Origin: an uncultured Candidatus Micrarchaeota archaeon
GTDB taxonomy: Archaea > Micrarchaeota > Micrarchaeia > Burarchaeales > Fermentimicrarchaeaceae
Length of the DNA stretch: 64,000 bases
Reading direction: 5' to 3'
NCBI GenBank assembly: GCA_963760615.1
Contig: CAVXDX010000008.1
Coordinates: 97,459 to 161,458 of the forward strand
The translations under genes were made by a program, and so were the position numbers. Position 1 is the first letter of the stretch. Every line of letters starts with the position of its first letter. The notes beneath the pieces were generated by a model. That model worked only from the letters and a program-made list of their open reading frames with translations, was not told the DNA's origin and searched no databases. Below, piece after piece: positions 2,019 to 46,187 of the stretch.

Positions 2019-2618
2019 ATGGAGAGTATTGCTGGCGGGCGTGATGCATGGGGTATGAAGCCATTTGTGATATCTGATGGAAGGGCGCACTGCGAGGATG
2101 AGACGGGGCGTATTGAGCTGGAGCCCATAAAAGGCGATATTGTAGTCAGCAGAATGTCCAAGGTTGATAGGAGAATAGCCGTTGCGACGCACCTTACGTT
2201 AACGGAAGGTGAGAAAGCAGACAATGTAGTAATCAATGTTGAAGTAGATGGCAGGCAATTCGAAGTAAAACGCATAAAAGTTGAAGTTGACCCGAGAGAT
2301 ATTGTAAGATTCACCGGACCTTTTACCTGCAAGGTACCGGAAAATGAGCTTGGAGATGGGTTGAAAAAACTTGATGTTACATTGGAAGGGGCTCTTGATG
2401 ATAGTGGAAAAAGGCTGAAAACGATTTATTTTAAGGAGATTGTTGTGCTCTACGCTGGTAGATCCAATTTGCAAGTAATACTCAAAGAACCTGCGCTGAA
2501 AAAAATGGATATAGATGTAGGGGATTATGAGAAACAGCTTAGTAAATGCCTTGAGTCTCTCACAAATTTGGAGGAGATGAGGCGCAGTTCTGCGTTCAGA
2601 GAAAGGGCAAGAAGCTAG
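2019..2618 (+). CDS. hypothetical protein
   Basis: 199-aa intact ORF between infB and pyrF; no recognisable motif. Confidence 0.4.
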   Translation: MESIAGGRDAWGMKPFVISDGRAHCEDETGRIELEPIKGDIVVSRMSKVDRRIAVATHLTLTEGEKADNVVINVEVDGRQFEVKRIKVEVDPRDIVRFTGPFTCKVPENELGDGLKKLDVTLEGALDDSGKRLKTIYFKEIVVLYAGRSNLQVILKEPALKKMDIDVGDYEKQLSKCLESLTNLEEMRRSSAFRERARS

Positions 2619-3418: not shown

Positions 3419-4027
3419 CTACACAGTGAAGTATTCACTGAATTTCTTCGTTGTCTTCAGCACCTTCGTCCTACCCTTCTTCTCTGCAGTGATGAACTGT
3501 GTTTCAACAAGCTCCTTTACATAGTCGTAGACGGATGAGCCGATCATCTTCGCAAGCTTTGACTGCGCCATTCCATCATTCTTTGCTATCACCGCAAGCG
3601 TCTTTATTGCACCTCTTGAAAGCTCCGCCTCCTTTGCCAAGCCGGACACTTTCCTCTCATACTCGGGCTTCAGCCTCATTATGTATCCTCCTTCCTCGAA
3701 AGATATCACAATGGCACTGCCTCTCTGCTCATACTCATTCTGCAGCTCCTTGAGCTTATCCTGCACAAGCTTCCAGGAGTTAAGACCGGAGATTTTGGAA
3801 AGTGTCCTCACAGTCATGGGAGAGGTGCTCATGAAAAGCGCAGCCTCGATAATGCTCTTTGCCTCAAGCATTTCCGGGGGAGCCTGCTCAGGGGGCTTCT
3901 GCTCCAGCTCCTCCTCTATAACTTCGTCAAGCTTCTCCCCTTCCTGCTTCTCCTTAGACTCTTCAACCTCCTCAGCTTCCTTCTCTATTTCCGAGATTTC
4001 CGTCTCTTCTGGTTTCTGCTCGTCCAT
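3419..4027 (-). CDS. scpB: segregation and condensation protein B (ScpB)
   Basis: 202 aa; acidic N-terminus then IEAALFMS...PMTVRTLSKI winged-helix ScpB signature. Confidence 0.75.
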   Translation of the reverse strand: MDEQKPEETEISEIEKEAEEVEESKEKQEGEKLDEVIEEELEQKPPEQAPPEMLEAKSIIEAALFMSTSPMTVRTLSKISGLNSWKLVQDKLKELQNEYEQRGSAIVISFEEGGYIMRLKPEYERKVSGLAKEAELSRGAIKTLAVIAKNDGMAQSKLAKMIGSSVYDYVKELVETQFITAEKKGRTKVLKTTKKFSEYFTV

Positions 4028-4085
4028 GCTTGAATTCTTATCCTCTAAGAATATTAACCTTTACTGTATTGGTTCCGATGCTGGT

Positions 4086-4125
4086 TTTAAATATTGAGAA
4101 TGAGCAATTTATGTGGTGATGTTTA
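4086..4125 (+). promoter_or_regulatory. second conserved promoter/5' block (TATA-N3-AAATGAGCAAATTT..GGTG.TG.TTATGG)
   Basis: GGTTTTAAATATTGAGAATGAGCAATTTATGTGGTGATGTTTACG here; GGTTTAAATACAGAAAATGAGCAAATTTAGATGGTGGTGTTTATGG at 5390-5435; weaker copy at 36346-36395. Confidence 0.55.
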
Positions 4126-4550
4126 CGCCAGTAAAGGAGAAAAAGCCAGAACAAGCGGACGAAGTGATGAAAGGAAAGACCGAAAAAGTTGGAGAAGTAA
4201 TGAAGGGAAAGCCCGAAAAGGTCGGAGAAGTGATGAAGAAGGAAAAGCCTCACTTTGCAGAAGCTATGAAGCGAATACGGGAGGAGGAGAAAGGAAAAGA
4301 AGCTGCACCAAAAACATTTTCTGAAGTCATGAAGAGAAGACTGGAAGAAGAGTCGGCCATATCTAAAAGGAGGCAGAAAAGAGAGAGTGAAGAAAGACTA
4401 ATAGCGCAGGAAAGGGAGAGGAAGCGCAGGGAAGTTCCGGAAGATGATAGGCATGACGGGGCTAGGAGAAGACAGGAACGTGAGAAGGAAGCAGACCGTA
4501 TAGAGCGAGAAAGAGCAATCAGGCGCGGGAAACGTGAAACTGAAGTTTGA
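4113..4550 (+). CDS. lysine/glutamate-rich repeat protein (EVMKGK-EKVG repeats)
   Basis: 145 aa, GTG start; about five EVMK(G/K)K-EKVG repeats then an R/E-rich tail; shares a promoter and 5' block with the gene at 5417. Confidence 0.5.
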   Translation: MVMFTPVKEKKPEQADEVMKGKTEKVGEVMKGKPEKVGEVMKKEKPHFAEAMKRIREEEKGKEAAPKTFSEVMKRRLEEESAISKRRQKRESEERLIAQERERKRREVPEDDRHDGARRRQEREKEADRIERERAIRRGKRETEV

Positions 4551-4632
4551 GCAGGAGACTAGAAGGAACCAAAGGGGTTTCTCTTGGGCAATCCTGAGTC
4601 ATCTAGGGCTTCTTTAGGCAAATCGGCATCAG

Positions 4633-5349
4633 CTAGGCTTCTGTTTTCTTCACATCCTCTTTTGTGGGCAGCTGTATGAATATCTCTCCAAAGAACTTCT
4701 CCTGAAAAACAGACAGCTTCCCGTCCTGGGCAAGATGCAGCACGGGCAGGAGGGTGTATATAATCTCCTTCCTGCTCCTCTCCTTCAGCAAGGATGAAAA
4801 TGTCACCAATCCTTTGGAGTCGGAGCATTTCTCCACCCTCTCGTAAATCTCCTTCATCCTCTGCGTTATGTCGTACTGGGGGATGTCTATCACCATCTTT
4901 TCCTTTATCACAGGCTTCTCCTGCTTCCTCCTCTGCTCCTCAAAGACTTCCTCCAAGGCTCCCATTAGCTCGTTCAACGTAACCTTCCTCTTCCTCGGTA
5001 TCCTTGTCCTCAGTGAAAGCATCGGTATCTCAACAGGCGCCTGCGCCTCGTCAATAAACGTCTGCTGCTCCACAACCTGCTCCTCCTCCTCAAATCGCAG
5101 GGCGTCGCTCTTGAAGCGCAGCAGTATCGAAGCGGCAAGGATGAGGTTTGCCGGCACCCGCAAGTCGAGCTTCTGGAGCTTCCTGACCCTCTCGAGGTAT
5201 TTGCTCGTTATATCCACAAGGTCAATATTCCAGGGGTCCAGCTTCTCGCTCACCACAAGGTCGAACAGCATCTCTCTCCAGGTGGGCTGCGCGACAAGCT
5301 TCTCCAAATCCACCTTTGCCTCTTTCTCCTCTGGTTTTTGCTCTTCCAT
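4633..5349 (-). CDS. scpA: segregation and condensation protein A (ScpA, kleisin)
   Basis: 238 aa; ...LDPWNIDLVDIT...LEL... ScpA N-terminal motif; N-terminus MEEQKPEE parallels ScpB. Confidence 0.75.
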   Translation of the reverse strand: MEEQKPEEKEAKVDLEKLVAQPTWREMLFDLVVSEKLDPWNIDLVDITSKYLERVRKLQKLDLRVPANLILAASILLRFKSDALRFEEEEQVVEQQTFIDEAQAPVEIPMLSLRTRIPRKRKVTLNELMGALEEVFEEQRRKQEKPVIKEKMVIDIPQYDITQRMKEIYERVEKCSDSKGLVTFSSLLKERSRKEIIYTLLPVLHLAQDGKLSVFQEKFFGEIFIQLPTKEDVKKTEA

Positions 5350-5416
5350 ACGAGGATTTTTTCACTCTGCACATTTATTAATGTAAGGTTTAAATACAGA
5401 AAATGAGCAAATTTAG

Positions 5417-5989
5417 ATGGTGGTGTTTATGGAAAAAGTTAAAGTTGATGGCAAAAGCACCATGAAGCTTGTAGAATTCGACACTATCAAGGTTGCAAGA
5501 GAAAAGGTGCCCAGCCAAGTGCTTGATGTTACGATGGAAAAGAAGGGTGAGATAGTCAGGAGAGGCAAGCTTTTTTTTGATATCCCTTCTCGAACTGACA
5601 AGCTGCGCCTTGACCTTGATATAGGATCTGGATGGGAATCTAACCTGACTATACTTTTCAATGCAAAACTCGAGAAGGGAGTGGATACGCCACAGAAATC
5701 ACCGCCTACCCTTTTAGAAGTTAAAATTGCAAGCCAGATGCCTACGCTGAGTATGGCTAGAAAACTTTTGGAGGAAGAACCAACGAATGCGCCTAAGGTC
5801 CCTGTTGTGAAGCTGGAATTGGTGAATATAGCCGGCGTTGGAACACACTCCAAATACTTTGACCTTGAAATTGGGAAAATAAAAACAAAGCTCGAGGACG
5901 CCATGAATAATACTCCGGAAGGGCGGGAACTGGTAATGACATTTGAATCTAGGCGTTCCGAGCTAAAACGAGCTGGAATACTGCACTAA
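5417..5989 (+). CDS. hypothetical protein
   Basis: 190-aa ORF; N-terminus MVVFMEKVKV and upstream 45 nt closely match the gene at 4113. Confidence 0.5.
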   Translation: MVVFMEKVKVDGKSTMKLVEFDTIKVAREKVPSQVLDVTMEKKGEIVRRGKLFFDIPSRTDKLRLDLDIGSGWESNLTILFNAKLEKGVDTPQKSPPTLLEVKIASQMPTLSMARKLLEEEPTNAPKVPVVKLELVNIAGVGTHSKYFDLEIGKIKTKLEDAMNNTPEGRELVMTFESRRSELKRAGILH

Positions 5990-6140
5990 ACATTTATTTT
6001 TAATTCTAGTTCTAACGTGCAGGGAGATTAGAAAGAACCGCAAGGTTCCTCTCCTGAGCCAATATTAACCTTTCCAGTTCCGGCACATCTCGCACAAGAA
6101 ACAGCACTTTCATCTCGGGCATAAGCAATACCGGTGAAAA

Positions 6141-6299
6141 CAGTGATTTCACCTCGGCAGTAAATCACTGGTAAATCGCCATAAAACTCGGTAAATCCCT
6201 CTTTCTCGCAAGCGTATAAATTACGTCGGGTAAATGCGGTAAATCCGCTCGCGTTGCGGAAAGGTCTGCCGTCGGAGTGATGGCAGTAGCGGATTTACT
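6141..6299. repeat. GTAAATC iteron-like repeat array in a 340-bp intergenic region
   Basis: GTAAATC(C/G) at about 6162, 6171, 6191, 6230, 6239 plus inverted AGCGGATTTAC at 6288; GGTGAAA-N7-TTTCACC inverted repeat at 6133-6153. Confidence 0.5.
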
Positions 6300-6329
6300 T
6301 TTCAGGAAGCTCCGGGTATTCCAGCAGGA

Positions 6330-7193
6330 CTACCTTCGGGATATTCCCAAGCTTGTCGATTGCTCTTTCTTCAGCATCTTCGAGTTGAAATGGTCGTAAA
6401 TCCTTATCACAGTGTCTGCTGCCGAAGCGACCACCTGTTCATACTCCTCCCTGCTTATCTCGCACTTTTCATCTACTCTGTGCGGAAGGTGGAACACGAA
6501 CCCTTCTAGGGCTACCTCGTAATGCTCATACAGCTCCTTGGCTATTGTCTTGTCGTCAGGATAGTCAAATCTTCGCAGAGATGCCCTAAGCTTGTCAATC
6601 CTTCTCAGAGGCTCGGCTCCAGGTGAACTCTGCCAAAGAGTTACATTAATGCCGGGTATTTTCAAATACTCCTCAAAGACTTCCTTTGAGTCTGCTTCGA
6701 CGTAAACAATTGGGTTGCTTTTCAGCTCGGTAGGCTTCGAGTTGCTGTAAACTAAATAAGGAGCATGTGTTGCTGGGCTGTAGTGTATGTCTACAATGAC
6801 GCTTGCACGCTCATCCCTTGCAGTTCCTAGCATTTCATTGTAAACTAGCAGATTATCGAAATTCTCCTTTTTGAAGAGCCTGTCCTGTTTCCTCATGCCG
6901 TAATCCTTTCCTGTTTTCATCCAGTGCAGGTCTATGACATCAGATGCATGCGTAAACGATTTCAGTTCGCAGACCTTTATGTCCCTCTCACCCTTGATTT
7001 TTTGAATTCGTTTCGCAACATCTTCCGTGAACTGCCTCTCAGGAGTGTGGGCGCCCCATGTCACGAGCATCGTTATGTATCTCCTTGCTTCCCCGACGTC
7101 CTGCGCGGCTTTCTCGAATTCTTTCTTATTCAGAATAGTCTTTATAGGTACGCTCCCCTCACCAGTCTCTGCGGTTTTGTGAATTCCATCCAT
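6330..7193 (-). CDS. hypothetical protein (cassette-promoter family member A)
   Basis: 287-aa ORF; start preceded by the conserved cassette CATGCCTGAATTATGCC...TATTTAAA. Confidence 0.5.
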   Translation of the reverse strand: MDGIHKTAETGEGSVPIKTILNKKEFEKAAQDVGEARRYITMLVTWGAHTPERQFTEDVAKRIQKIKGERDIKVCELKSFTHASDVIDLHWMKTGKDYGMRKQDRLFKKENFDNLLVYNEMLGTARDERASVIVDIHYSPATHAPYLVYSNSKPTELKSNPIVYVEADSKEVFEEYLKIPGINVTLWQSSPGAEPLRRIDKLRASLRRFDYPDDKTIAKELYEHYEVALEGFVFHLPHRVDEKCEISREEYEQVVASAADTVIRIYDHFNSKMLKKEQSTSLGISRR

Positions 7194-7268
7194 GCCTGAA
7201 TTATGCCTTTTCTTCTATTTAAACCCTAGAGAAGTCTATAAAGATTGTTATAAGGTAACTCCGGGAAC

Positions 7269-8279
7269 CTATCGCTCGACCAGCTCAACCCTCAAAAGTT
7301 TATTTTTTATGAACGAGTCCAAACGATCGGAAAGCTCACCTCCCAATCCGCTCGAGCTCATCCCAGACATTTTCAGCTCCTCTTGAAGCTTCCAATCTTC
7401 TAAATGCCCCCGCCCTCCATTTGCCCGGTCCAGCTCCACAATCAGCTTTTCTATCTCTCCCAGCCCTCCCTCCCTCTCGAATACTATTTCGTGCCATTTA
7501 GCTTCAAAAATTCTGGATGCTTCCTCAGGAGTTATAAAGCCCCTCTGGTCTATCCTATGCTCGATTTCAATAAACGCTTCCCCTATGATGGAAGGAAGCT
7601 TGCGTATTTCAGCATCAAATTCCGCCCTCTTCCCGCGTTCATACTTTATTCTTGTCATTTTCAGCGACTCCTTCTTCGGAGGTGATTCCAGCAAATGTAT
7701 GTCGGTCAGCTGCCCCAGGCTTATCCCCTGGTCCTCCAGATTCTTTACATTTGTGGAGATGGTATCCAGTCGGGTCTTGTTGACGAACTTTACTATATCC
7801 GCCATGGGGATCCGCGTCTCTTCCTTCAGCATGTTTATTATATCCCTTTCAACCTCATCAAGAAAACTGCTGAATTCCGCAGGCGCTTTTGTCAGGAGGC
7901 CCTGCCGGGCGTACTCCGCTGGGTTCCTCCCTCGCGTTTCCAGAGCCATTATGTTAGCCTCAAGGTTAATCGGGGTTGCCCCTAGGAGCGACAGCGAGGG
8001 AATGGAGCATATCTTGTGCCTATCAAAAATCTGCATATTCTTCTCAATCTTATCCATTGAAGCGTGCTTTAGAAGGTTGCTTATGCCCTCAACGGAAGCA
8101 CTCTCCACTCTGCTTTTTATTATCCGGATAGTCTCCCTGTCTCCCTTCGGGCGGCTGTCTGCTAAGGCCTTTGCATCACCCCAGCGCATGTAAAGGTCTC
8201 TCATCAGCCATTTTTCAAACTCCCCTCTGCTCATAAGCCTGGTATCCTTCCCTTCAGTTTTGACCTGCTCGGCGCACAT
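7269..8279 (-). CDS. hypothetical protein (cassette-promoter family member B)
   Basis: 336-aa ORF; cassette at 8280-8312; 14-bp palindrome at 8350-8363. Confidence 0.5.
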   Translation of the reverse strand: MCAEQVKTEGKDTRLMSRGEFEKWLMRDLYMRWGDAKALADSRPKGDRETIRIIKSRVESASVEGISNLLKHASMDKIEKNMQIFDRHKICSIPSLSLLGATPINLEANIMALETRGRNPAEYARQGLLTKAPAEFSSFLDEVERDIINMLKEETRIPMADIVKFVNKTRLDTISTNVKNLEDQGISLGQLTDIHLLESPPKKESLKMTRIKYERGKRAEFDAEIRKLPSIIGEAFIEIEHRIDQRGFITPEEASRIFEAKWHEIVFEREGGLGEIEKLIVELDRANGGRGHLEDWKLQEELKMSGMSSSGLGGELSDRLDSFIKNKLLRVELVER

Positions 8280-8349
8280 GGTTAGATTATGGCTTTTTCG
8301 ATATTTAAGCTTGTTCGATTAACACCGGCAAATCGTAACTTTCGGTTAT

Positions 8350-8363
8350 GTAACCATGGTTAC
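8350..8363. promoter_or_regulatory. perfect 14-bp palindrome GTAACCATGGTTAC upstream of ORF 7269..8279
   Basis: Exact palindrome; identical copy at 11628-11641. Confidence 0.6.
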
Positions 8364-8373
8364 ATCTAACCTC

Positions 8374-9426
8374 TCAACCCATCTTATCAGGAAGCTTCGG
8401 TGCCTTCCTTATCAGCTCGTCAATGTCGGTTATGCCTGTCTTAAACTTCTCCAGGCTTACCCCATACATCTTCACTTCCTTCTGGCCCACCACAACAAGA
8501 TTAGCCTCCTCTATTCCTAGAAACAAGCCCCTCGCTTTGCATCTCTTTTCAAAATCATCCAATCTCTCTTTACCAACTATTGCCTGCAATGTGTAATAAT
8601 CCCTGAAACCCTCGCTGTATCTCCTTGCCTTGCCTGCTTCGTCCCTCCATACGTCAAAATTCAAATATTTATCCTGAGGGTGATCATAGTCCCCCATCCC
8701 ATGTTTATGTTTATAAAATGCAGGGAGAGGAGTTGCTATTTTATCCATAAAACTTATAGCATAAAACGCCCTGACAAATGCATCCTTGCTGCTGAGCAAT
8801 TCAGTCTCGGCGAAAGTGGCTTTGCCTTCGCTGTACCTCTGCATAGCCCTCCGCAGCCTTTTTGCATCCTCACCCCCAGTACGGAATTTATGTAAATCCT
8901 CCCAAAAAAGAGCCAGCCTACGGGCACTTTCATCACGTATATGGTCCATCTCGTGCAATATTGCTCCAATCGACGAAATGGCGGATTCCTGCGCGTAATA
9001 CAGCACTCGGGTGCCGTCCTTCTCACGGCTTCCATGCCAATCTCCGTCATAAGATTTGAGTATTCTCAAACCTTGAGTTTCCATCCCATGATTTTTCTTT
9101 ACATACTCAAGTACCTGCATAAAGTGATCCCTTGACTGGATTGAGAGGGGCAAATTGTTCTCTTCAGCAAAGTGGTTATCAAGATACCGAACTAGCGGGC
9201 TGTTGCCTAACCGGAACATTCTGCCTGCCTTTATAGTCTCGCTGTATCTGTACGGATCCTTTATTTCCTTCAGCCTCTCTCTCGCCCAGTCTCCCATCCA
9301 CGCCTTTACTTCCTTTTGTTTCTCCAATGTGCCCAGCGCCTCATCAGCTATCTTCCAGCATTTTTCATAGAGTCCCTTGGCTTCTTCGCTTAAAACCAGC
9401 TCGCTTGACTTTGTAGCTGTTACCAT
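8374..9426 (-). CDS. HExxH zincin-like putative metallopeptidase (family member C)
   Basis: 350 aa; HEMDH followed 12 residues later by W, as in ORFs 10639..11589 and 45159..46139; cassette promoter. Confidence 0.5.
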   Translation of the reverse strand: MVTATKSSELVLSEEAKGLYEKCWKIADEALGTLEKQKEVKAWMGDWARERLKEIKDPYRYSETIKAGRMFRLGNSPLVRYLDNHFAEENNLPLSIQSRDHFMQVLEYVKKNHGMETQGLRILKSYDGDWHGSREKDGTRVLYYAQESAISSIGAILHEMDHIRDESARRLALFWEDLHKFRTGGEDAKRLRRAMQRYSEGKATFAETELLSSKDAFVRAFYAISFMDKIATPLPAFYKHKHGMGDYDHPQDKYLNFDVWRDEAGKARRYSEGFRDYYTLQAIVGKERLDDFEKRCKARGLFLGIEEANLVVVGQKEVKMYGVSLEKFKTGITDIDELIRKAPKLPDKMG

Positions 9427-9566
9427 GCCTAAATTATGCCTCTTTTGATATATTAAGATTACTTTGGAAGTTGGAATCTGAACTCAAAAGTAACTGCCCG
9501 CCCTTGGCATCCTGAACTGAAATGTTAATGCCCAGCTGTAGCTTTGAACTGAAATAGTCAAGAACC

Positions 9567-9701
9567 TTAATATACTCCTGAATAACAGACCACCTTTTTT
9601 ATCTTTCTAGTTCCAACCGTTCCGTCAGGAAGAATAAATGCCTTATATCTAGCCCTTCGCTTCTTTTCCCGCTTATAAATGCAACCTCTTGGAGCTTTCA
9701 T
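9567..9701 (-). CDS. small basic protein (44 aa)
   Basis: Not in the ORF track (under 60 aa); AGGTGGT Shine-Dalgarno 5 nt before ATG; MKAPRGCIYKREKKRRARYKAF...; co-directional downstream of the CxxCxxCC gene. Confidence 0.3.
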   Translation of the reverse strand: MKAPRGCIYKREKKRRARYKAFILPDGTVGTRKIKKVVCYSGVY

Positions 9702-9764
9702 TTATACCACCTCTATTTTTTAACTTCTTTTTTTGTTAATTCATCTTTTTGTTTCGTCATGATT

Positions 9765-10196
9765 TCACTCCCACAATTTTTTAATTACCTCATCAACAGT
9801 TATCGTTTCAAAAATTGGGCAGTCCTTTTTTTCAAAGTCTATTATCTTCTGTATCTTTTCCCTGTTCCATTTTTCTACTCCTCTGAATAAGTTATCTGGG
9901 CCGATAGCACAGAAATCAGGTCTTTCCTTATCCCAAACCGAGCAGTAATATTTTCCGTCTTTCATATATAGTTTAGCACACTCTTTTTTGAATGTTATCT
10001 GCTTCATGTCGAGTCCATCCCCAAATGTAAAAGGCGTGTCCTCTGTGATCTCTGTGATAATTGTATTATCGAGCATCCATCTAAACCTAAGTGCGGAGTC
10101 TAAAGTATCGTATAGAGTATATTCCTTGCAACACTTGGCACATCTTTGGCATATCTCCGAGTTTGCCAATTTGCTTTTGTTCCCGATTATTGTCAT
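9765..10196 (-). CDS. CxxCxxCC putative zinc/iron-chelating domain protein (YkgJ-like)
   Basis: 143 aa; CQRCAKCC motif plus additional Cys; start overlaps the TBP stop by 4 nt (ATGA). Confidence 0.55.
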   Translation of the reverse strand: MTIIGNKSKLANSEICQRCAKCCKEYTLYDTLDSALRFRWMLDNTIITEITEDTPFTFGDGLDMKQITFKKECAKLYMKDGKYYCSVWDKERPDFCAIGPDNLFRGVEKWNREKIQKIIDFEKKDCPIFETITVDEVIKKLWE

Positions 10197-10507
10197 CTGC
10201 TCACCTTCTTGGGGACTGGCAGAGGTTTTGTATGGGGAGCCAGTAGCTTTATCGCTCGCTCTAAGGCATACTTCACTTCTCTCTCATTCTTGCAGCCTGT
10301 GCATATTACCTTGCCGTTCTTGAAGAGCAGAAGAGATGCCTTTGGATCTTTGAACTTGAGTATTGCACCTGGGAACTGCTCTGGCTCATACTCCACATTC
10401 CTGATTTTGCTGGCAATAGTGTAAAGGTCAAGCTCCACTCCCAGATTGGCTGAAGCTACTATGTTCTCTATCTTGAACGATGGATCAATTGTAAGTTTCT
10501 TTGTCAA
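10193..10507 (-). CDS. single-repeat TATA-box-binding protein (one TBP domain only)
   Basis: 104 aa, TTG start; KIENIVASANLGVELDL...VEYEPEQFPGAI...DPKASLLLFKNGKVICTGCK is unmistakable TBP repeat sequence; no second repeat upstream or downstream. Confidence 0.7.
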   Translation of the reverse strand: MTKKLTIDPSFKIENIVASANLGVELDLYTIASKIRNVEYEPEQFPGAILKFKDPKASLLLFKNGKVICTGCKNEREVKYALERAIKLLAPHTKPLPVPKKVSR

Positions 10508-10638
10508 TGAAACACCTTCTCTGCCCCTTCCAGCCCATTTCTACTTAAAACCACCTGTTAGATGCCTCCCACCATACTCTCACTCATCAAATAGTTCTGT
10601 TCTGTAGTATATTAAGATTGCTTTGGCTTGAGAATAAG

Positions 10639-11589
10639 CTAAACCCTCCCTTCCTTCAGATCTCTCAGATACTCATCCGGATGATCTATGTGCCTCATGG
10701 TAAGAGGAGGATGTTTAATCGTGTATTTGATTGGGTTTTCCCCGGTTTTTTTCTCTATATACCCCAAGAACGCCATGCCCTTGGAATTTAGAGGTTGCTC
10801 CTCGTCCTCCTTAAGCAGTGTGGACTGTCTCATAGCCTTGTAGGAGTAACCAAATTTGCTTATAACCCGGTACCCGGCGTAGTATGCAATGCCCTCGTCG
10901 AAAGCTTGCCGGGCGTCAATCCCGTCTCTGACTATCTGCCATCTCGCCTCCATAGCTTCCTCATCCCCTGCTAGTTCAGAGTGGATTTTTACCTGCTCAC
11001 GTATGGAGTCTACAGACCAGTTCGCAACCTCAGGAATATTCTCCTTGATTGTTTGGTGCAGCTGCTCGTGGACAAAAGTGTTAAGGACAAGAAACCTCTC
11101 GATTCTCTTCCCTTCCTCGCTGTTTGGGCTGACTAGTTGCACTGCGCACTGCAGTCTAAACAGCTCTTCAATGTTGTCCCGCACAATATATGCGGTATTT
11201 TGCTCAGAGCTGAAAAAACCGGAAGTAGCTCTAAAAATGCTGGGCATATCGAAATCAACACCTTCCATTATCTCCCGTCTGAGCTCTTCGAGGAGAGTCT
11301 TATCGGACATGAACTTTTTGGATGTCGAGTAGAACTCTTCCTGCGTCATTTTCGTCGCTTCATCCCTGCTAATGAATTTTATGCTTATCTCGCCTTTTTT
11401 AAAACTCGTACTTACTTTCATCCCTGTTATGTCTTCGATACGTTTTGCAACTTGCATTATTTCGTATTTCGAAGGCACGTATAGCTCGGTTGGTGGAGAA
11501 GCAGATTCGCTATTAGTTTTATCTGCACCATGAAGTCTGATTATATGGTCCTTTATGTTCGTATCAGCTGATGGCTTAACAGTCCACAT
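10639..11589 (-). CDS. HExxH zincin-like putative metallopeptidase (family member D)
   Basis: 316 aa; HEQLH-x12-W and FDEGIAYYAGY (EGxAxY-like); cassette promoter at 11590-11622; palindrome at 11628-11641. Confidence 0.5.
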   Translation of the reverse strand: MWTVKPSADTNIKDHIIRLHGADKTNSESASPPTELYVPSKYEIMQVAKRIEDITGMKVSTSFKKGEISIKFISRDEATKMTQEEFYSTSKKFMSDKTLLEELRREIMEGVDFDMPSIFRATSGFFSSEQNTAYIVRDNIEELFRLQCAVQLVSPNSEEGKRIERFLVLNTFVHEQLHQTIKENIPEVANWSVDSIREQVKIHSELAGDEEAMEARWQIVRDGIDARQAFDEGIAYYAGYRVISKFGYSYKAMRQSTLLKEDEEQPLNSKGMAFLGYIEKKTGENPIKYTIKHPPLTMRHIDHPDEYLRDLKEGRV

Positions 11590-11622
11590 GCTGAGATTAT
11601 GCCTCTTTCAATATTTAAGCTT
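11590..11622 (-). promoter_or_regulatory. conserved promoter cassette (TATA + GGCATAATCTnRRC) directly preceding ATG
   Basis: Coding strand CTTAAATATTGAAAGAGGCATAATCTCAGC-ATG; near-identical at 7194-7232, 8280-8312, 9427-9462, 46140-46172; weaker at 13986-14020 and 30207-30243. Confidence 0.6.
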
Positions 11623-11627
11623 GCTTT

Positions 11628-11641
11628 GTAACCATGGTTAC
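11628..11641. promoter_or_regulatory. perfect 14-bp palindrome GTAACCATGGTTAC abutting the TATA box of ORF 10639..11589
   Basis: Exact palindrome 8 nt upstream of TATA (ATATTTAAG at 11611-11619). Confidence 0.6.
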
Positions 11642-11721
11642 ATTCTCCGCCAAATCTCATCTTCGCTTTGGTATTAGCCTGTTTCTCGGCAGATTTAAAT
11701 ATCAGAAATGGCGTAATTTAA

Positions 11722-12186
11722 GTGCTGAGATTTATGGTAACAACTGTGATGGATGAACCAAAAATGCGGGTAGAAATGCAAAGGAAATACTTTAAAGAAA
11801 AAGATTACAAAGTGGTAGAAGTTCCTAGAAGCAGGCTGGGTGAACTGTCCCACATATGGAGCCTGCTGCCAAGGATCGGGTATGACGAAGGCAAACCTCA
11901 GCCCAGTATGATTCCTGTCGGTTTTGTAAAAAAAGAAGACGAAAAATGGCATCTTTTGGGTGTAGTAAAGCATCAGGATGTATTGCATCATGTACCAGGA
12001 TCATCGGATTTGTTTGTAGAACCGCTAACAGGGAAATTAAGCATAACTCCAAAACCCCAAGACGATATAACACGAAATATGGTTGAGGTTCTTGTTGCAA
12101 GGCTTCCAGAGCCATTAAAAACCAAGCTGTATGAAGCAGCCCTAAAGCATGCGGATTTAGGCAGGGATATGTTCGTAAAGGATTAG
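11722..12186 (+). CDS. hypothetical protein
   Basis: 154-aa ORF. Confidence 0.4.
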   Translation: MLRFMVTTVMDEPKMRVEMQRKYFKEKDYKVVEVPRSRLGELSHIWSLLPRIGYDEGKPQPSMIPVGFVKKEDEKWHLLGVVKHQDVLHHVPGSSDLFVEPLTGKLSITPKPQDDITRNMVEVLVARLPEPLKTKLYEAALKHADLGRDMFVKD

Positions 12187-12198
12187 GACACCGCCAGA

Positions 12199-14071: not shown

Positions 14072-14938
14072 ATGGAGAATGAAGCGAAAGGCTCTCTGCT
14101 CATTGTATTGGCATGTCTCATGTACAGTTTCATAGGGGTTTTCTCGAGGTTTGCAGGCATAAACTTATTCGCTCTGGTTTTCTACAAGGAAGTGCTCGCT
14201 GCGCTCTTCTTTTTCTTCATATTTCTTTTTGCCCGCAAGGATGCGGGTAAGTTGAAGATGAATTGGGAGATGGCGAAATTTTTCATCCCCTACGCGCTTG
14301 TCGTTACCATAACTGAAGTGACGTTCATTGGAGCGTATCTGAACACAAGTATGATAAACGCTATATTCTTGGGTGGCCTGACTCCAGTATTTGTTGCTGT
14401 GCTATCCTTCTTCTTTCTGAAAGAGAAGTTGAACCTAACAACACTTCTCTCTTTGATTCTTGGGGTTACGGGAATAGGTTTCATTGCGGGAGCTGACCTG
14501 CTTGGCGTGCTTAATGGGAAAAACCTCCTTGGAGATGCTCTGGCAGTGATTTATGCCATAGCCTACGCCGTCTTTATCATATACGGGAGGGAAAGGGCGA
14601 AGAGGAAGGTGGATATCTACTATTCTGTTTTCTGGTCGTATGCAATTGCAGCTCTTTTCCTACTCCCAGTTGATTTGGTGTATGGCACACTGGCAATCCC
14701 ATTGGAATCAGTGGTATGGATTGTGCTGCTAGCTTTCCTATGTACGAATATAGCCTTCATCCTATTCTGCAAGGGCTTTGAGTATATTGATGCGCCGAAG
14801 GGCAGCATAGTTACGTTGGCAGAGCAGGTGTTTGTGACTATCAATGCATTCCTTTTCTTTGGGGAGAACCTGAGTCTTTTCGCGGTTATAGGCGCAGTTC
14901 TAATCTGCTCTTCAGTTGTTCTGGAAGAGATGAGATAA
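14072..14938 (+). CDS. EamA/DMT-family transporter
   Basis: 288 aa, about 10 TM helices in two halves. Confidence 0.6.
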   Translation: MENEAKGSLLIVLACLMYSFIGVFSRFAGINLFALVFYKEVLAALFFFFIFLFARKDAGKLKMNWEMAKFFIPYALVVTITEVTFIGAYLNTSMINAIFLGGLTPVFVAVLSFFFLKEKLNLTTLLSLILGVTGIGFIAGADLLGVLNGKNLLGDALAVIYAIAYAVFIIYGRERAKRKVDIYYSVFWSYAIAALFLLPVDLVYGTLAIPLESVVWIVLLAFLCTNIAFILFCKGFEYIDAPKGSIVTLAEQVFVTINAFLFFGENLSLFAVIGAVLICSSVVLEEMR

Positions 14939-27329: not shown

Positions 27330-27345
27330 TGCAACCACGAAAGAG

Positions 27346-27435
27346 CGGGCCCGGCGGGATTTGAACCCGCGACTCCCTGGTTTCCTCATGCGAGTTTAAA
27401 AGCCAGGTACTCTGGCCAAGCTGAGTTACGGGCCC
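27346..27435 (-). tRNA. tRNA-Lys (anticodon TTT) with 15-nt canonical intron
   Basis: Acceptor GGGCCCG/CGGGCCC, anticodon stem CCTGG/CCAGG, loop CTTTTA|A interrupted after position 37 by AACTCGCATGAGGAA, T-arm GCGGG-TTCAAAT-CCCGC. Confidence 0.75.
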
Positions 27436-36332: not shown

Positions 36333-36389
36333 CTCGTTATACCTAATTATTTATAAACTCAAAATGAGTAAATATATCGGTGATAGCTT

Positions 36390-37097
36390 ATGGTCATAGT
36401 AAAAGTTCATGACGAGATCGCAAAACATCATGGGGGGGATACTGCTACATGGATCGACGAGATTAGGAGGCAGAAAGATAACGAGGGTATTAGGAAGAAA
36501 ATGCAGGAATTCGCAGAGAAGCACGGTTCAGATGTTAAAATGGTTGGTGGCCTAAGCGGTGCTTTGCTTGAGGGGTTCAAAAGGGTCAAGGACAACAATA
36601 CAAAAGCTACTTACGGCAGTGCAATGATTTATCTTGCTAAGAGCCTGAATGAGAGGGATGAGGAGCTTATGGGTAAGTTGGATGTTTTTAATAAGGCAGT
36701 TGAGGAAAAAGGCGGCACGGTTTGGGTTGTGAAGAGAGACACGAAGATTGGGGATATGATGAGCTTTTCCAGCGACTTGATGGGAATGGAGATTAAAAAG
36801 AATACCGATAATATGCTCTCAGTCAGGAATGGGGCGATTCCTGTGAAGGAAAACAGTGGAAAGGTCATTGCCGAGGAGACTGAGAAGTTTATGAAGTTGC
36901 TAATGAGCACGTATTACAGAAGCGGTTATGCGGTTGGGATTGAAAATATTATAACGGGCGTGACAAGCAACTTGGCTGTTTGGGGAGACGAAGTAAGAGA
37001 CGGAATTAATCGTGCAACTGCAGAAGCAGAGTCATTGGGGATAGATGTCAAAAAACTCGAACGCACGGCAACATTCAGCTCAGTAAAAGCAGAATGA
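36390..37097 (+). CDS. hypothetical protein
   Basis: 235-aa ORF; 5' flank AAAATGAGTAAAT...GGTGAT..TTATGG resembles those at 4113 and 5417. Confidence 0.45.
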   Translation: MVIVKVHDEIAKHHGGDTATWIDEIRRQKDNEGIRKKMQEFAEKHGSDVKMVGGLSGALLEGFKRVKDNNTKATYGSAMIYLAKSLNERDEELMGKLDVFNKAVEEKGGTVWVVKRDTKIGDMMSFSSDLMGMEIKKNTDNMLSVRNGAIPVKENSGKVIAEETEKFMKLLMSTYYRSGYAVGIENIITGVTSNLAVWGDEVRDGINRATAEAESLGIDVKKLERTATFSSVKAE

Positions 37098-46139: not shown

Positions 46140-46187
46140 GCTTAGATTATGCCTTTTGCTTTATTTAAATAGTGAAGTTTACCGGTA

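What the first reader, a model, noticed from the sequence alone, without database searches (positions are those of the whole stretch)
3990..5440. Duplicated divergent-promoter block: scpB/K-E-repeat gene versus scpA/hypothetical gene
Region ~4000-4130 and region ~5320-5435 are clearly homologous. On one side are the first codons of ScpB and ScpA (CTGGTTTCTGCTCGTCCAT versus CTGGTTTTTGCTCTTCCAT, giving M[D/E]EQKPEE). On the other is the promoter plus first codons of the plus-strand genes (…GGTTTTAAATATTGAGAATGAGCAATTTATGTGGTGATGTTTACG versus …GGTTTAAATACAGAAAATGAGCAAATTTAGATGGTGGTGTTTATGG, giving MV[M/V]F). The two kleisin-complex subunits therefore each sit in a duplicated head-to-head module with a small gene. 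This implies module duplication or gene conversion and likely co-regulation.
Basis: seen in the sequence. Interest (0 to 1): 0.55.

Follow-up and report, generated by a model that had tools for sequence, protein, structure and literature searches.

The report
Two copies of a lineage-wide promoter
The two look-alike stretches next to the chromosome-condensation genes scpA and scpB are not a local duplication: they are two copies of a standard promoter-plus-leader signal that this group of tiny archaea (Micrarchaeota) places in front of many unrelated small genes of unknown function.

Summary
The similarity is real but comes as two separate patches, not one block. Patch 1 is the first 8 codons of scpB and scpA (M[D/E]EQKPEE). 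It also occurs in a relative (Sv368) where the two genes are adjacent and have no small neighbours. Each scp gene has its own different leaderless promoter, conserved with its orthologues in relatives. Patch 2 (4086-4127, 5389-5431) belongs to the plus-strand small genes. It is a promoter-plus-leader module: TTTAAATA-N5-AAATGAGCAATTT(T)A-N2-GGTGAT-N4-ATGG. An exact-pattern scan found it in 34 metagenome loci, up to 4-5 copies per contig, heading about 20 unrelated proteins without Pfam domains. The two window copies are not each other's closest relatives (ranks 17 and 20 of 24). Homologues of the K/E-rich gene sit in two other genomic contexts, each with the module. In 17 of 21 relatives scpA and scpB are adjacent, so the K/E-rich gene is a roughly 565-nt insertion. 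"MV[M/V]F" is probably Shine-Dalgarno sequence plus spacer, not peptide. Both small genes also end in a shared, lineage-wide hairpin. Local duplication and kleisin co-regulation are not supported. The extended promoter motif appears undescribed. Whether it is core promoter or operator remains open.

The parts
3419..4027 (-). scpB (202 aa). The first about 58 aa form an acidic low-complexity tail. The first 8 codons (4003-4027) make up patch 1a, MDEQKPEE.
   Evidence: Pfam PF04079 at 5.9e-31, residues 59-201. Orthologues in L001-L006 are 74-92% identical.
4050..4064 (-). scpB's own leaderless promoter. On the minus strand it reads GTAAAGG-TTAATATT, followed by 22 nt and then the ATG at 4027.
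   Evidence: Conserved as cagtaaagRttaatatt, followed by about 22 nt and ATG, in L001-L006, including genomes where scpA and scpB are adjacent. It is not similar to the scpA promoter.
4071..4076 (+). GGTTCC, apparently the right half of the lineage-wide hairpin, 9 nt upstream of the K/E-rich gene's TATA box.
   Evidence: Compare window tgtattGGTTCCgatGCTGGTTTTAAATA with L033 GGAACCGCGAGGTTCCTCTTGGGGCTGGTTTTAAATA and with L025 and L043. This is an inference from sequence.
4086..4127 (+). Promoter/leader module copy 1, belonging to the K/E-rich gene. TATA TTTAAATA at 4086-4093; AATGAGCAATTTA at 4099-4111; GGTGAT at 4115-4120; ATG at 4119; ACG at 4125-4127, where the family normally has ATG. Predicted transcription start is G4116.
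   Evidence: nhmmer E = 9e-13 against the family profile. The same module precedes the K/E homologues in L025 and L026. The transcription start is inferred from the 22-nt TATA-to-ATG spacing of leaderless genes.
4119..4550 (+). K/E-rich small gene (143 aa from ATG 4119; 145 aa from GTG 4113). It holds three 33-nt (11-aa) tandem repeats at 4130-4237 and an R/E-rich C-terminus.
   Evidence: No Pfam or PHROG hit. Two homologues, P0002 (52% identical) and P0003 (45%), lie in other contexts.
4552..4596 (+). 3' hairpin after the K/E-rich gene: CAGGAGACTAGAAGGAACC-AAAG-GGGTTTCTCTTGGGCAATCCTG.
   Evidence: Aligns with 6017-6059. Folds at -18.1 kcal/mol, z = -2.2. Many copies occur in the metagenome loci.
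4068..4632 (.). Extent of the roughly 565-nt insertion (half hairpin, module, K/E-rich ORF, hairpin and trailer) that splits an ancestrally adjacent scpA-scpB pair.
   Evidence: scpA and scpB are adjacent in L001, L004, L005 and L009-L021. Homology with L001 resumes at CAGTAAAGGTTAATATT.
4633..5349 (-). scpA (238 aa). The first 8 codons (5325-5349) make up patch 1b, MEEQKPEE.
   Evidence: Pfam PF02616 at 1.3e-15. 24 related loci were found, the closest 81-92% identical.
5374..5381 (-). scpA's own TATA box (TTAATAAA on the minus strand), 24 nt before ATG 5349 and only 7 nt from the TATA box of the opposite gene.
   Evidence: Conserved in L022 and L003 as TTAATAAA, about 24 nt and then cctcgtATG. 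Also listed.
5389..5431 (+). Promoter/leader module copy 2, belonging to the 186-aa orphan gene. TATA at 5389-5396; AATGAGCAAATTTA at 5402-5415; GGTGGT at 5419-5424; ATG at 5429. Predicted transcription start is G5419, giving a 10-nt leader.
   Evidence: nhmmer E = 4.5e-11. A variant module sits at the same position, divergent from scpA, in L004 and L006, but in front of an unrelated 164/162-aa gene.
5429..5989 (+). Orphan gene, 186 aa from ATG 5429 (190 aa if read from 5417).
   Evidence: The only database hit is itself, P0001, among 5.8 billion clusters. No Pfam, NCBIfam or PHROG hit.
6017..6059 (+). 3' hairpin after the orphan gene: GCAGGGAGATTAGAAAGAACC-GCAA-GGTTCCTCTCCTGAGC.
   Evidence: Folds at -14.9 kcal/mol, z = -2.3.
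11694..11736 (+). Weaker third copy of the module (TTTAAATAtcagAAATGGCGTAATTTAagtgctgagattTATGG), in front of the 154-aa gene 11722-12186.
   Evidence: nhmmer E = 2.5e-5. No Pfam hit.
36350..36392 (+). Marginal fourth copy (TTTATAAActcAAAATGAGTAAATATAtcGGTGATagcttATGG), in front of gene 36390-37097.
   Evidence: nhmmer E = 0.9 only.
7194..7223 (-). Leaderless variant of the same promoter family (TTTAAATAgaagAAAAGGCATAATtcaggc-ATG). Other copies have their TATA box at 8302-8309, 9449-9456, 11612-11619 and 46162-46169 (all minus strand).
   Evidence: The orthologous promoter in L029 reads TTAAATATCGAAAATGAGCTAATTTAGGC-ATG. This links the leaderless form to the AATGAGC form.

Best explanation
The plus-strand patch is two ordinary members of a lineage-wide promoter-plus-leader module of a Micrarchaeota clade related to Ca. 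Fermentimicrarchaeum. It is not a local duplication.

How the module is read:
- TBP and TFB bind the TTTAAATA box.
- The next about 22 nt carry a conserved element, AAATGAGCAATTT(T)A, at about -18 to -4. Its AT-rich 3' half lies where archaeal promoters melt.
- Transcription is inferred to start at the G of GGTGAT, 23 nt after the TATA box.
- The roughly 10-nt leader begins with a Shine-Dalgarno sequence (GGUGAU) and ends at ATGG.

A leaderless version of the same promoter (...AATTTAGGC-ATG) heads other genes. Many module-headed genes also end in a shared hairpin (...AGAGGGAACC-GNRA-GGTTCCTCTTGGG), which probably acts as a 3'-end, stability or termination element.

These standard signals bracket small, strain-variable genes of unknown function. 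Such genes occupy intergenic slots of an otherwise conserved backbone: leuS-trm5-(hydrolase)-scpA-scpB-pyrF-aIF5B. In this genome one such gene (K/E-rich) was inserted between the ancestrally adjacent scpA and scpB. Another (the orphan) lies at the edge of a 6.8-kb non-syntenic block upstream of scpA.

scpA and scpB keep their own, different, leaderless promoters. Their shared first 8 codons are a separate, older and minor similarity between two acidic N-termini.

Shown here: the copy number, distribution and conservation of the module; its association with unrelated genes; the synteny.
Inferred: the transcription start, the Shine-Dalgarno role, and the roles of the -18..-4 element and of the hairpin.
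For: 1. Copy number. The exact pattern TTTAAATANNNRRAATGAGCAAN{0,1}TTTA occurs in 34 metagenome loci. In the loci with GC 0.42-0.49, the positions not fixed by the pattern are also conserved: GGTGAT, then N3-4, then ATGG, in fixed register.
2. Density. A profile search of 532 kb found further copies: 5 in 13 kb of L029 and 4-5 in L033. It also found graded variants down to leaderless forms. Each copy sits directly in front of an ORF.
3. Unrelated genes. The downstream proteins fall into about 20 unrelated BLAST clusters. None of the 25 module-headed proteins scanned has a Pfam hit at E <= 1e-3 other than one weak wHTH and one weak S19e match.
4. No local kinship. The two window copies rank 17th and 20th of 24 in similarity to each other. 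Their identity is 0.60 against a family mean of 0.636; at unconstrained columns it is 0.45 against 0.47.
5. The module travels with its gene. K/E homologues P0002 and P0003 lie next to nadC (L025) and next to a tRNA and a CMD-family gene (L026). Both have the same module.
6. Synteny. scpA and scpB are adjacent in 17 of 21 relatives. Different opposite-strand genes fill the gap in L002, L003 and L006.
7. The scpB promoter cagtaaagRttaatatt-N22-ATG is conserved in all close relatives. The scpA promoter is conserved in L003 and L022.
8. The 22-nt TATA-to-ATG spacing in at least 6 leaderless genes of the window places the module's transcription start at the G of GGTGAT.
9. Housekeeping and tRNA promoters in the window have a TATA box and an AT-rich proximal stretch but lack AATGAGC.
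10. Archaeal promoters melt in an AT-rich region about 12 bp upstream of the start site (PMC7289017).
Against: - There is no transcript data, so the transcription start, leader length and hairpin function are inferred.
- A 15-nt element this well conserved is unusual for a purely basal archaeal promoter. It heads only a minority of genes, all without known domains. That pattern fits a dedicated regulator equally well.
- The metagenome set was selected by the pattern itself, so conservation inside the pattern is circular. Only the flanks and the profile-found extra copies are independent evidence.
- About 12 of the 34 loci (GC 0.14-0.38) are unrelated organisms that lack the Shine-Dalgarno and ATG part. 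They are probably chance or unrelated matches.
- Lineage assignment of most metagenome loci rests on GC content and a few shared genes: the one-repeat TBP at 93% identity in L029, and homologues of window genes in L025, L035 and L038.
- Under a naive composition model the 7-of-8 match of the ScpA and ScpB N-termini is improbable (my rough estimate, about 1e-5). A short ancient conversion tract therefore cannot be excluded.
Confidence: 0.72

Rival explanations
1. Local segmental duplication or gene conversion. A head-to-head block of about 130 nt was copied from one scp gene to the other. The block would carry a bidirectional promoter plus the first codons on both sides, so that ScpA and ScpB are co-regulated.
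For: Both patches lie in the same order and orientation at both sites. Both patterns are unique pairs within the 64 kb. The 7-of-8 N-terminal identity is hard to explain by composition alone.
Against: - The middle of the block, which holds the scp promoters, is not homologous and differs in length by 19 nt.
- Each scp promoter matches its orthologue in relatives, not the other scp promoter.
- The N-terminal match exists in Sv368, which has no divergent small genes.
- At the 6 synonymous sites of the shared codons, 4 are identical, about what chance gives (read).
- ScpB's MDE start is ancestral: it reads MDE[TK]EAERIIEAALF in distant relatives. ScpA's MEEQK start is shared with L002.
- The plus-side copies are not each other's nearest relatives. 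That sequence occurs in dozens of other places.
Confidence: 0.06
2. Regulon operator. The conserved AAATGAGCAATTT(T)A between the TATA box and the start site is the binding site of a dedicated regulator, or is recognised by an alternative initiation factor. One candidate is the one-repeat TBP paralogue encoded in the window. A large set of lineage-specific small genes would then be switched together. The two window genes would be co-regulated with that set, not with scpA and scpB.
For: - The element is far better conserved than the equivalent region of housekeeping and tRNA promoters in the same window.
- It heads only genes without known domains.
- It sits where archaeal repressors commonly bind, downstream of the TATA box (my own knowledge of MDR1, Phr and the TrmB/Tgr-TGM systems).
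- It contains a short inverted repeat, AAAAT-N5-ATTTT.
- A conserved clade of 100-120-aa single-repeat TBPs exists in these organisms.
Against: - No cognate factor has been identified.
- The inverted repeat consists only of A and T and is only 5 nt long.
- Variants grade continuously into the ordinary proximal element (...TAATYTWAGC), which is also seen at a tRNA-Asn promoter. That is what a basal consensus would show.
- There is no expression data.
Confidence: 0.25
3. Mobile expression-ready cassettes. The unit [hairpin]-[module]-ORF-[hairpin] moves between intergenic slots by recombination at the conserved hairpin or module sequences. This would explain the variable occupancy of the same slots in close relatives.
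For: - The same slots (trm5-scpA, scpA-scpB, pyrF-aIF5B, leuS-trm5) hold different or no opposite-strand genes in close relatives.
- The K/E family is found in three contexts, always with the module.
- In L025, L029, L033 and L043 the hairpin directly precedes the module. In the window only the right half of the hairpin (GGTTCC) remains at the insertion boundary.
- L033 and L045 carry arrays of 4-5 module-headed genes.
Against: - No integrase or transposase is nearby.
- No target-site duplication is seen at the K/E insertion (read).
- The hairpin is absent from the 21 genome loci of relatives, including those with slot insertions.
- The hairpin also lies between ordinary co-directional genes and directly before a tRNA gene, as a generic extragenic palindrome would.
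- One viral-contig match only, from an unrelated low-GC sequence.
Confidence: 0.1

Closest known systems
Archaeal core promoter (BRE / TATA box / AT-rich initially melted or promoter-proximal region / initiator), with leaderless or short Shine-Dalgarno-led mRNAs
   Same: An 8-bp TATA box. Fixed 22-24-nt spacing to the start codon of leaderless genes. An AT-rich stretch in the last 12 bp or so before the inferred start. A T|G or C|A pyrimidine-purine initiator. GGTGAT complementary to the conserved 3' end of archaeal 16S rRNA (the last point is my own knowledge).
   Different: The stretch between TATA box and start carries a nearly invariant 15-nt sequence, AAATGAGCAATTT(T)A. The whole 45-nt unit, Shine-Dalgarno register and ATGG included, is conserved in front of about 20 unrelated genes. 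Housekeeping promoters of the same genome lack it. There is no clear purine-rich BRE upstream.
Promoter-embedded regulon motifs in archaea, such as the Thermococcales glycolytic motif bound by the TrmB-family regulator Tgr (my own knowledge)
   Same: A conserved motif next to the TATA box, shared by a set of non-homologous genes in one lineage.
   Different: The glycolytic motif is a clear palindrome with a known regulator and heads metabolic genes. Here the motif is not a convincing palindrome, no regulator is known, and the genes have no known function.
Repetitive extragenic palindromes and terminator-like 3' hairpins of bacteria
   Same: A short GC-rich stem with a GNRA-type loop, highly repeated and intergenic, often at the 3' ends of genes.
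   Different: Found in an archaeon, where termination normally needs only an oligo-T tract. There is no T-run after the stem. It often abuts the next promoter module, or a Shine-Dalgarno sequence or tRNA gene.
scpA-scpB operon of the SMC-ScpAB condensin complex
   Same: ScpA (kleisin) and ScpB are both present, on the same strand and in the usual order. They are adjacent in most relatives.
   Different: In the Fermentimicrarchaeum-like clade scpB has its own leaderless promoter and an acidic N-terminal tail of about 55 aa. Here the pair is split by an opposite-strand gene.
Integron gene cassettes (attC-bounded ORFs)
   Same: Small, unrelated, often orphan ORFs in variable arrays, each followed by a conserved imperfect palindrome.
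   Different: No integrase. The palindrome is about 25-45 nt and lacks the RYYYAAC/GTTRRRY cores. Every ORF carries its own promoter. Copies are scattered among housekeeping genes.

Membership tests
Segmental duplication / gene-conversion tract | Contiguous homology across the whole block | tested here: not met
   There is a 19-nt gap and a non-homologous middle section that holds the two different scp promoters.
Segmental duplication / gene-conversion tract | The two copies are each other's closest relatives among all copies | tested here: not met
   They rank 17th and 20th of 24. Pair identity is 0.60, against a family mean of 0.636.
Segmental duplication / gene-conversion tract | Excess identity at synonymous sites in the shared codons | tested here: not met
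   4 of 6 synonymous sites are identical, near the chance expectation (sequence).
Archaeal core promoter | TATA box about 22-24 nt upstream of the transcription start | tested here: inconclusive
   TTTAAATA is present. The spacing agrees with that of leaderless genes in the window. No transcript 5' ends are available.
Archaeal core promoter | AT-rich initially melted region just upstream of the start | tested here: met
   CAATTT(T)A plus 2-3 nt occupies about -12 to -1 of the inferred start in all family members. The feature is described in PMC7289017.
Archaeal core promoter | Purine-rich BRE directly upstream of the TATA box | tested here: not met
   The 12 columns upstream of the TATA box are only 30-60% conserved and have no purine-rich consensus.
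Shine-Dalgarno-led translation start | Complementarity to the 16S rRNA 3' end, 4-9 nt before the start codon | tested here: inconclusive
   GGTGAT/GGTGGT/GGAGGT lies 3-5 nt before ATG in most copies. The 16S rRNA of this organism is not in the window, so the complementarity rests on the general archaeal anti-Shine-Dalgarno sequence (my own knowledge).
Regulon operator (TGM-like) | A motif restricted to a subset of promoters at a fixed position | tested here: met
   Present at 2 strong and 2 weak promoters out of about 68 genes in the window. Absent from scpA, scpB, tRNA and other housekeeping promoters.
Regulon operator (TGM-like) | A cognate DNA-binding regulator and dyad symmetry | tested here: inconclusive
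   Only a 5-nt A/T-only inverted repeat (AAAAT-N5-ATTTT) is present. No regulator has been identified.
Integron cassette | An integron integrase and attC sites with R/L core boxes | tested here: not met
   No recombinase was found among the genes scanned in the window or in the called genes of L025-L027. The hairpin is short and lacks the GTTRRRY cores.
Known RNA family (Rfam) | A match reaching the family's gathering score | tested here: not met
   The only hit in 3900-6200 is a sub-threshold C/D-box match (16.6 bits against a gathering score of 36, E = 0.88) inside the K/E-rich ORF.
ScpA / ScpB | Pfam domain above the gathering score | tested here: met
   PF02616 scores 58.5 bits (cut-off 24.6). 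PF04079 scores 107.6 bits (cut-off 27.4).

The most novel reading that the evidence does not exclude
The promoter/leader module and the 3' hairpin together delimit standardised, expression-ready gene cassettes. These would shuffle orphan genes among intergenic slots of Micrarchaeota genomes. Their unusually conserved promoter would be read by a dedicated initiation factor, for example the conserved single-repeat TBP paralogue encoded 5 kb away. If so, these symbionts would run a separate transcription programme for a fast-evolving accessory gene pool.
Probability: 0.1. Interest if true: 0.75.

Novelty: new variant of a known kind. Interest (0 to 1): 0.35.

Why it matters
For the finding as stated, it matters little. 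There is no evidence of a special duplicated control region for the condensin subunits, so that idea should be dropped.

What remains is useful in three ways.

1. It gives a precise 45-nt promoter-plus-leader consensus and a 3' hairpin consensus for an uncultivated DPANN lineage. No transcription start data appear to exist for this lineage. The consensus could improve start-codon calling; for example, "MVVF" is not part of the protein. It could also help detect small genes.
2. It shows that the most strictly conserved promoters in these reduced genomes belong to unrelated orphan genes rather than to housekeeping genes. That raises a testable question: are these genes one regulon, possibly linked to the symbiotic lifestyle?
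3. It documents that scpA and scpB, usually an operon, are separately transcribed here, and that this arrangement tolerates insertions between them.

Tried and rejected
- **A conserved peptide.** I tested whether the plus-strand small proteins are homologous, which would make the shared 5' end coding. All-against-all BLASTP and tblastn of 22 accessory proteins found no relationships beyond orthologue pairs. The 190-aa ORF is an orphan.
- **A virus or plasmid origin.** There were no PHROG hits for 10 proteins. The one viral-contig match is an unrelated sequence with GC 0.30. The 5.4-12.2 kb block looked like an island, but it is partly syntenic with a 287-kb chromosomal contig of a relative: TBP 93% identical plus a homologue of the 336-aa gene. 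I therefore treat it as a rearranged chromosomal segment.
- **A known RNA.** Rfam found nothing. The leaders do not fold consistently: z = 0.09 for the K/E-rich gene and -2.4 for the orphan gene.
- **A generic TATA-only explanation.** Rejected, because AATGAGC and the Shine-Dalgarno register are also shared.
- **The sigma-70 promoter/terminator scanner.** Not used, because the organism is an archaeon.
- **Exact look-ups.** Look-ups of ScpA and P0001 in the contig index returned nothing.
- **Literature.** Searches for Micrarchaeota or DPANN promoter motifs and transcription start mapping found nothing relevant.
- **Target-site duplication.** None is visible at the junctions of the K/E insertion.
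- **Structure prediction.** Not attempted for the small proteins. One is an orphan with no alignment and the other is low-complexity, and neither bears on the promoter question.

Full report
**What is in the window**

The region holds four genes:
- scpB, 3419-4027, minus strand. Pfam PF04079, 5.9e-31.
- A K/E-rich ORF, 4113-4550, plus strand. No family hit.
- scpA, 4633-5349, minus strand. Pfam PF02616, 1.3e-15.
- A 190-aa ORF, 5417-5989, plus strand. No family hit.

The organism is a Micrarchaeota (DPANN) archaeon. ScpA finds 24 related loci. The closest are MAGs Sv174 (92% identity), Sv368 (86%) and the complete genome of Ca. Fermentimicrarchaeum limneticum Sv326 (85%).

**Check of the observation**

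The quoted strings are correct and the similarity is far above chance within the 64 kb. It is not one homologous block, though. The alignment needs a 19-nt gap and the central parts differ. Two patches remain:
- The first 8 codons of scpB and scpA (4003-4027 versus 5325-5349).
- About 45 nt at the 5' end of the two plus-strand genes (4086-4127 versus 5389-5431).

**The scp side**

In the orientation of the scp genes, each has its own leaderless promoter:
- scpB: GTAAAGGTTAATATT, then 22 nt, then ATG.
- scpA: TTAATAAA, then 24 nt, then ATG.

Apart from the TATA box these do not resemble each other. Each is conserved with its orthologue in relatives. scpB's promoter is found in L001-L006, even where scpB directly follows scpA. 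scpA's is found in L003 and L022.

The shared M[D/E]EQKPEE is also present in Sv368. There scpA and scpB are 42 nt apart, and the gene upstream of scpA is a co-directional hydrolase. The N-terminal similarity is therefore not tied to a head-to-head arrangement.

Three further points argue against a recent copy:
- ScpB's MDE start is ancestral. Distant relatives begin MDE[TK]EAERIIEAALF.
- ScpA's MEEQK start is shared with Sv174.
- At the six synonymous sites of the shared codons, four are identical, about what chance gives.

The residual match (QKPEE) may be a short old conversion or convergence of two acidic tails. I cannot tell which, and it is minor either way.

**Synteny**

Relatives share the backbone leuS-(288-aa gene)-trm5-(hydrolase)-scpA-scpB-pyrF-aIF5B. 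scpA and scpB are adjacent in 17 of 21 relatives. In L002, L003 and L006 different opposite-strand genes fill the gap.

In the window three blocks interrupt this backbone:
- The K/E-rich gene, between scpA and scpB (about 4068-4632).
- A 199-aa gene, between pyrF and aIF5B.
- A 6.8-kb non-syntenic block (about 5390-12190), between scpA and the hydrolase.

The orphan ORF is the first gene of that 6.8-kb block.

**The plus-strand patch is a family**

A first profile built from the two window copies found a variant in L004 and L006. It is again divergent from scpA, but in front of an unrelated 164/162-aa gene. It also found weak copies in the window at 11694 and 36350.

The K/E protein has two homologues (P0002, 52% identical; P0003, 45%) in quite different contexts. 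One lies next to nadC, the other next to a tRNA and a CMD-family gene. Both are preceded by the same sequence.

An exact-pattern scan of metagenome contigs, TTTAAATANNNRRAATGAGCAAN{0,1}TTTA, returned 34 loci. About 22 of them have GC content like the window (0.42-0.49). In those, the positions not fixed by the pattern are also conserved. The consensus is TTTAAATAT-CnAAAATGAGCAATTTTAG-n-GGTGAT-GTTT-ATGGC.

A profile search of all 532 kb in hand found many more copies:
- Five within 13 kb of L029 and four to five in L033 and L045.
- Graded variants down to leaderless forms, such as L029 TTAAATATCGAAAATGAGCTAATTTAGGC-ATG.

The leaderless forms connect the family to the leaderless promoters of five window genes, TTTAAATA-N5-AAAGGCATAAT-N6-ATG. 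One of these window promoters is orthologous to an AATGAGC-type promoter in L029.

The proteins downstream fall into about 20 unrelated clusters. None of the 25 scanned has a convincing Pfam domain.

**Test of local duplication**

Among 25 distinct module copies, the two window copies rank 17th and 20th of 24 in similarity to each other. Their identity (0.60) is below the family mean (0.636). At unconstrained columns it is 0.45 against 0.47. They are two typical members, not sister copies.

**How the module most likely works**

This section is inference. In at least six leaderless genes of the window the ATG lies 22 nt after the TATA box. The same spacing puts the module's start at the G of GGTGAT (G4116 and G5419). 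That gives a leader of about 10 nt that begins with a Shine-Dalgarno sequence and ends in ATGG.

This explains why gene callers start the orphan at ATG 5429, giving P0001 of 186 aa. It also explains why 'MV[M/V]F' recurs in front of unrelated proteins: it is Shine-Dalgarno sequence plus spacer.

In the K/E-rich gene the family's ATG has become ACG (4125-4127). Its homologues have ATG or GTG there, and all three share an ATG two codons earlier (4119 in the window). The K/E-rich gene therefore probably starts at 4119 with almost no leader.

The AT-rich 3' half of the conserved element lies in the roughly 12 bp that melt before initiation (PMC7289017). The 5' half, AATGAGC, has no known counterpart. 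Housekeeping and tRNA promoters in the window share only the TATA box and an AT-rich proximal stretch. It could be a lineage-specific extension of the core promoter or an operator. I favour the former only slightly.

The two opposed TATA boxes are 7 nt apart at scpA and the orphan gene (5374-5381 and 5389-5396). They are 28 nt apart at scpB and the K/E-rich gene. The divergent initiation complexes may therefore interfere sterically. That is speculation, and it is the only route by which the small genes could affect scp expression.

Both small genes end in a similar hairpin (4552-4596 and 6017-6059). Its consensus, GGGAGGKTAGAGGGAACC-GNRA-GGTTCCTCTTGGG, is highly repeated in the metagenome loci. 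There it often directly precedes the next module, and sometimes a Shine-Dalgarno sequence or a tRNA gene. Only its right half (GGTTCC, 4071-4076) precedes the K/E module in the window, at the insertion boundary. It looks like a repetitive extragenic palindrome or 3'-end element. A role in recombination is possible but unsupported.

**Comparison with known systems and novelty**

The thing is an archaeal promoter with a short Shine-Dalgarno leader, which is a known kind. What is unusual is the length and strictness of the conserved unit and its restriction to unrelated orphan genes. I found no description of it. No Rfam family matches.

**Verdict**

The interpretation as a duplicated head-to-head module, and as kleisin co-regulation, is not supported. 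The underlying phenomenon is a lineage-wide standard expression signal. Interest is modest, at 0.35.

Noticed in passing
window 10193-10507 (-): A 104-aa protein with only one TBP repeat (PF00352, 4.2e-30); normal archaeal TBPs have two repeats. It belongs to a conserved clade of 100-120-aa one-repeat TBPs in Micrarchaeota metagenomes (77-94% identical, some on contigs of 228-287 kb). That clade is distinct from the two-repeat 173-182-aa TBPs of the same class (60-74% identical). It overlaps the next gene (CxxCxxCC domain, 9765-10196) by 4 nt.
   Followed up: partly
window 4552-4596 and 6017-6059 (+); L025, L026, L029, L033, L037, L043, L051: A highly repeated intergenic hairpin, GGGAGGKTAGAGGGAACC-GNRA-GGTTCCTCTTGGG. 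It lies at the 3' ends of genes, often 8-10 nt before the promoter module, and sometimes directly before a Shine-Dalgarno sequence or a tRNA gene.
   Followed up: partly
window, TATA boxes at 7216-7223, 8302-8309, 9449-9456, 11612-11619 and 46162-46169 (all -); L006 about 6382 (-): Near-identical leaderless promoters, TTTAAATA-N5-AAAGGCATAAT-N6-ATG, in front of five genes without Pfam domains. The 26-nt string GGTTTAAATAGAAGAAAAGGCATAAT is identical between the window and L006, a different species.
   Followed up: partly
window 2019-2618 (+), 14072-14938 (+) and 5390-12190: The conserved minus-strand backbone leuS-trm5-scpA-scpB-pyrF-aIF5B is interrupted by strain-variable genes, mostly on the opposite strand. 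The 199-aa gene between pyrF and aIF5B is absent from all relatives. The 288-aa gene is present in L002, L003 and L022 but absent from L004-L006. The 6.8-kb block is partly syntenic with L029.
   Followed up: partly
window 3854-4027 (-) and L001-L006 compared with L009-L021: The acidic N-terminal tail of about 55 aa on ScpB, and scpB's own leaderless promoter, are specific to the Fermentimicrarchaeum-like clade. More distant Micrarchaeota start ScpB directly at MDE[TK]EAERIIEAALF, immediately after scpA.
   Followed up: partly
window 4130-4237 (+): Three tandem 33-nt (11-aa) repeats, (E)EVMKGKxEKVG, inside the K/E-rich gene. They are conserved in homologue P0002.
   Followed up: no
L001 (start) and L022 (end), both MAG Sv368: The Sv368 assembly breaks inside the first 120 nt of scpA. 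Two contigs overlap there, which suggests strain variation or a repeat at this variable junction.
   Followed up: no
L038 244-2316 (+): Homologues of two separate window genes (8374-9426 and 10639-11589) lie back to back inside one 690-aa ORF in this metagenome locus. This suggests a gene fusion or split.
   Followed up: no
window 27345-27435 (-): ARAGORN reports a 91-nt tRNA with an undetermined anticodon ('tt'). It may be an intron-containing or atypical tRNA.
   Followed up: no
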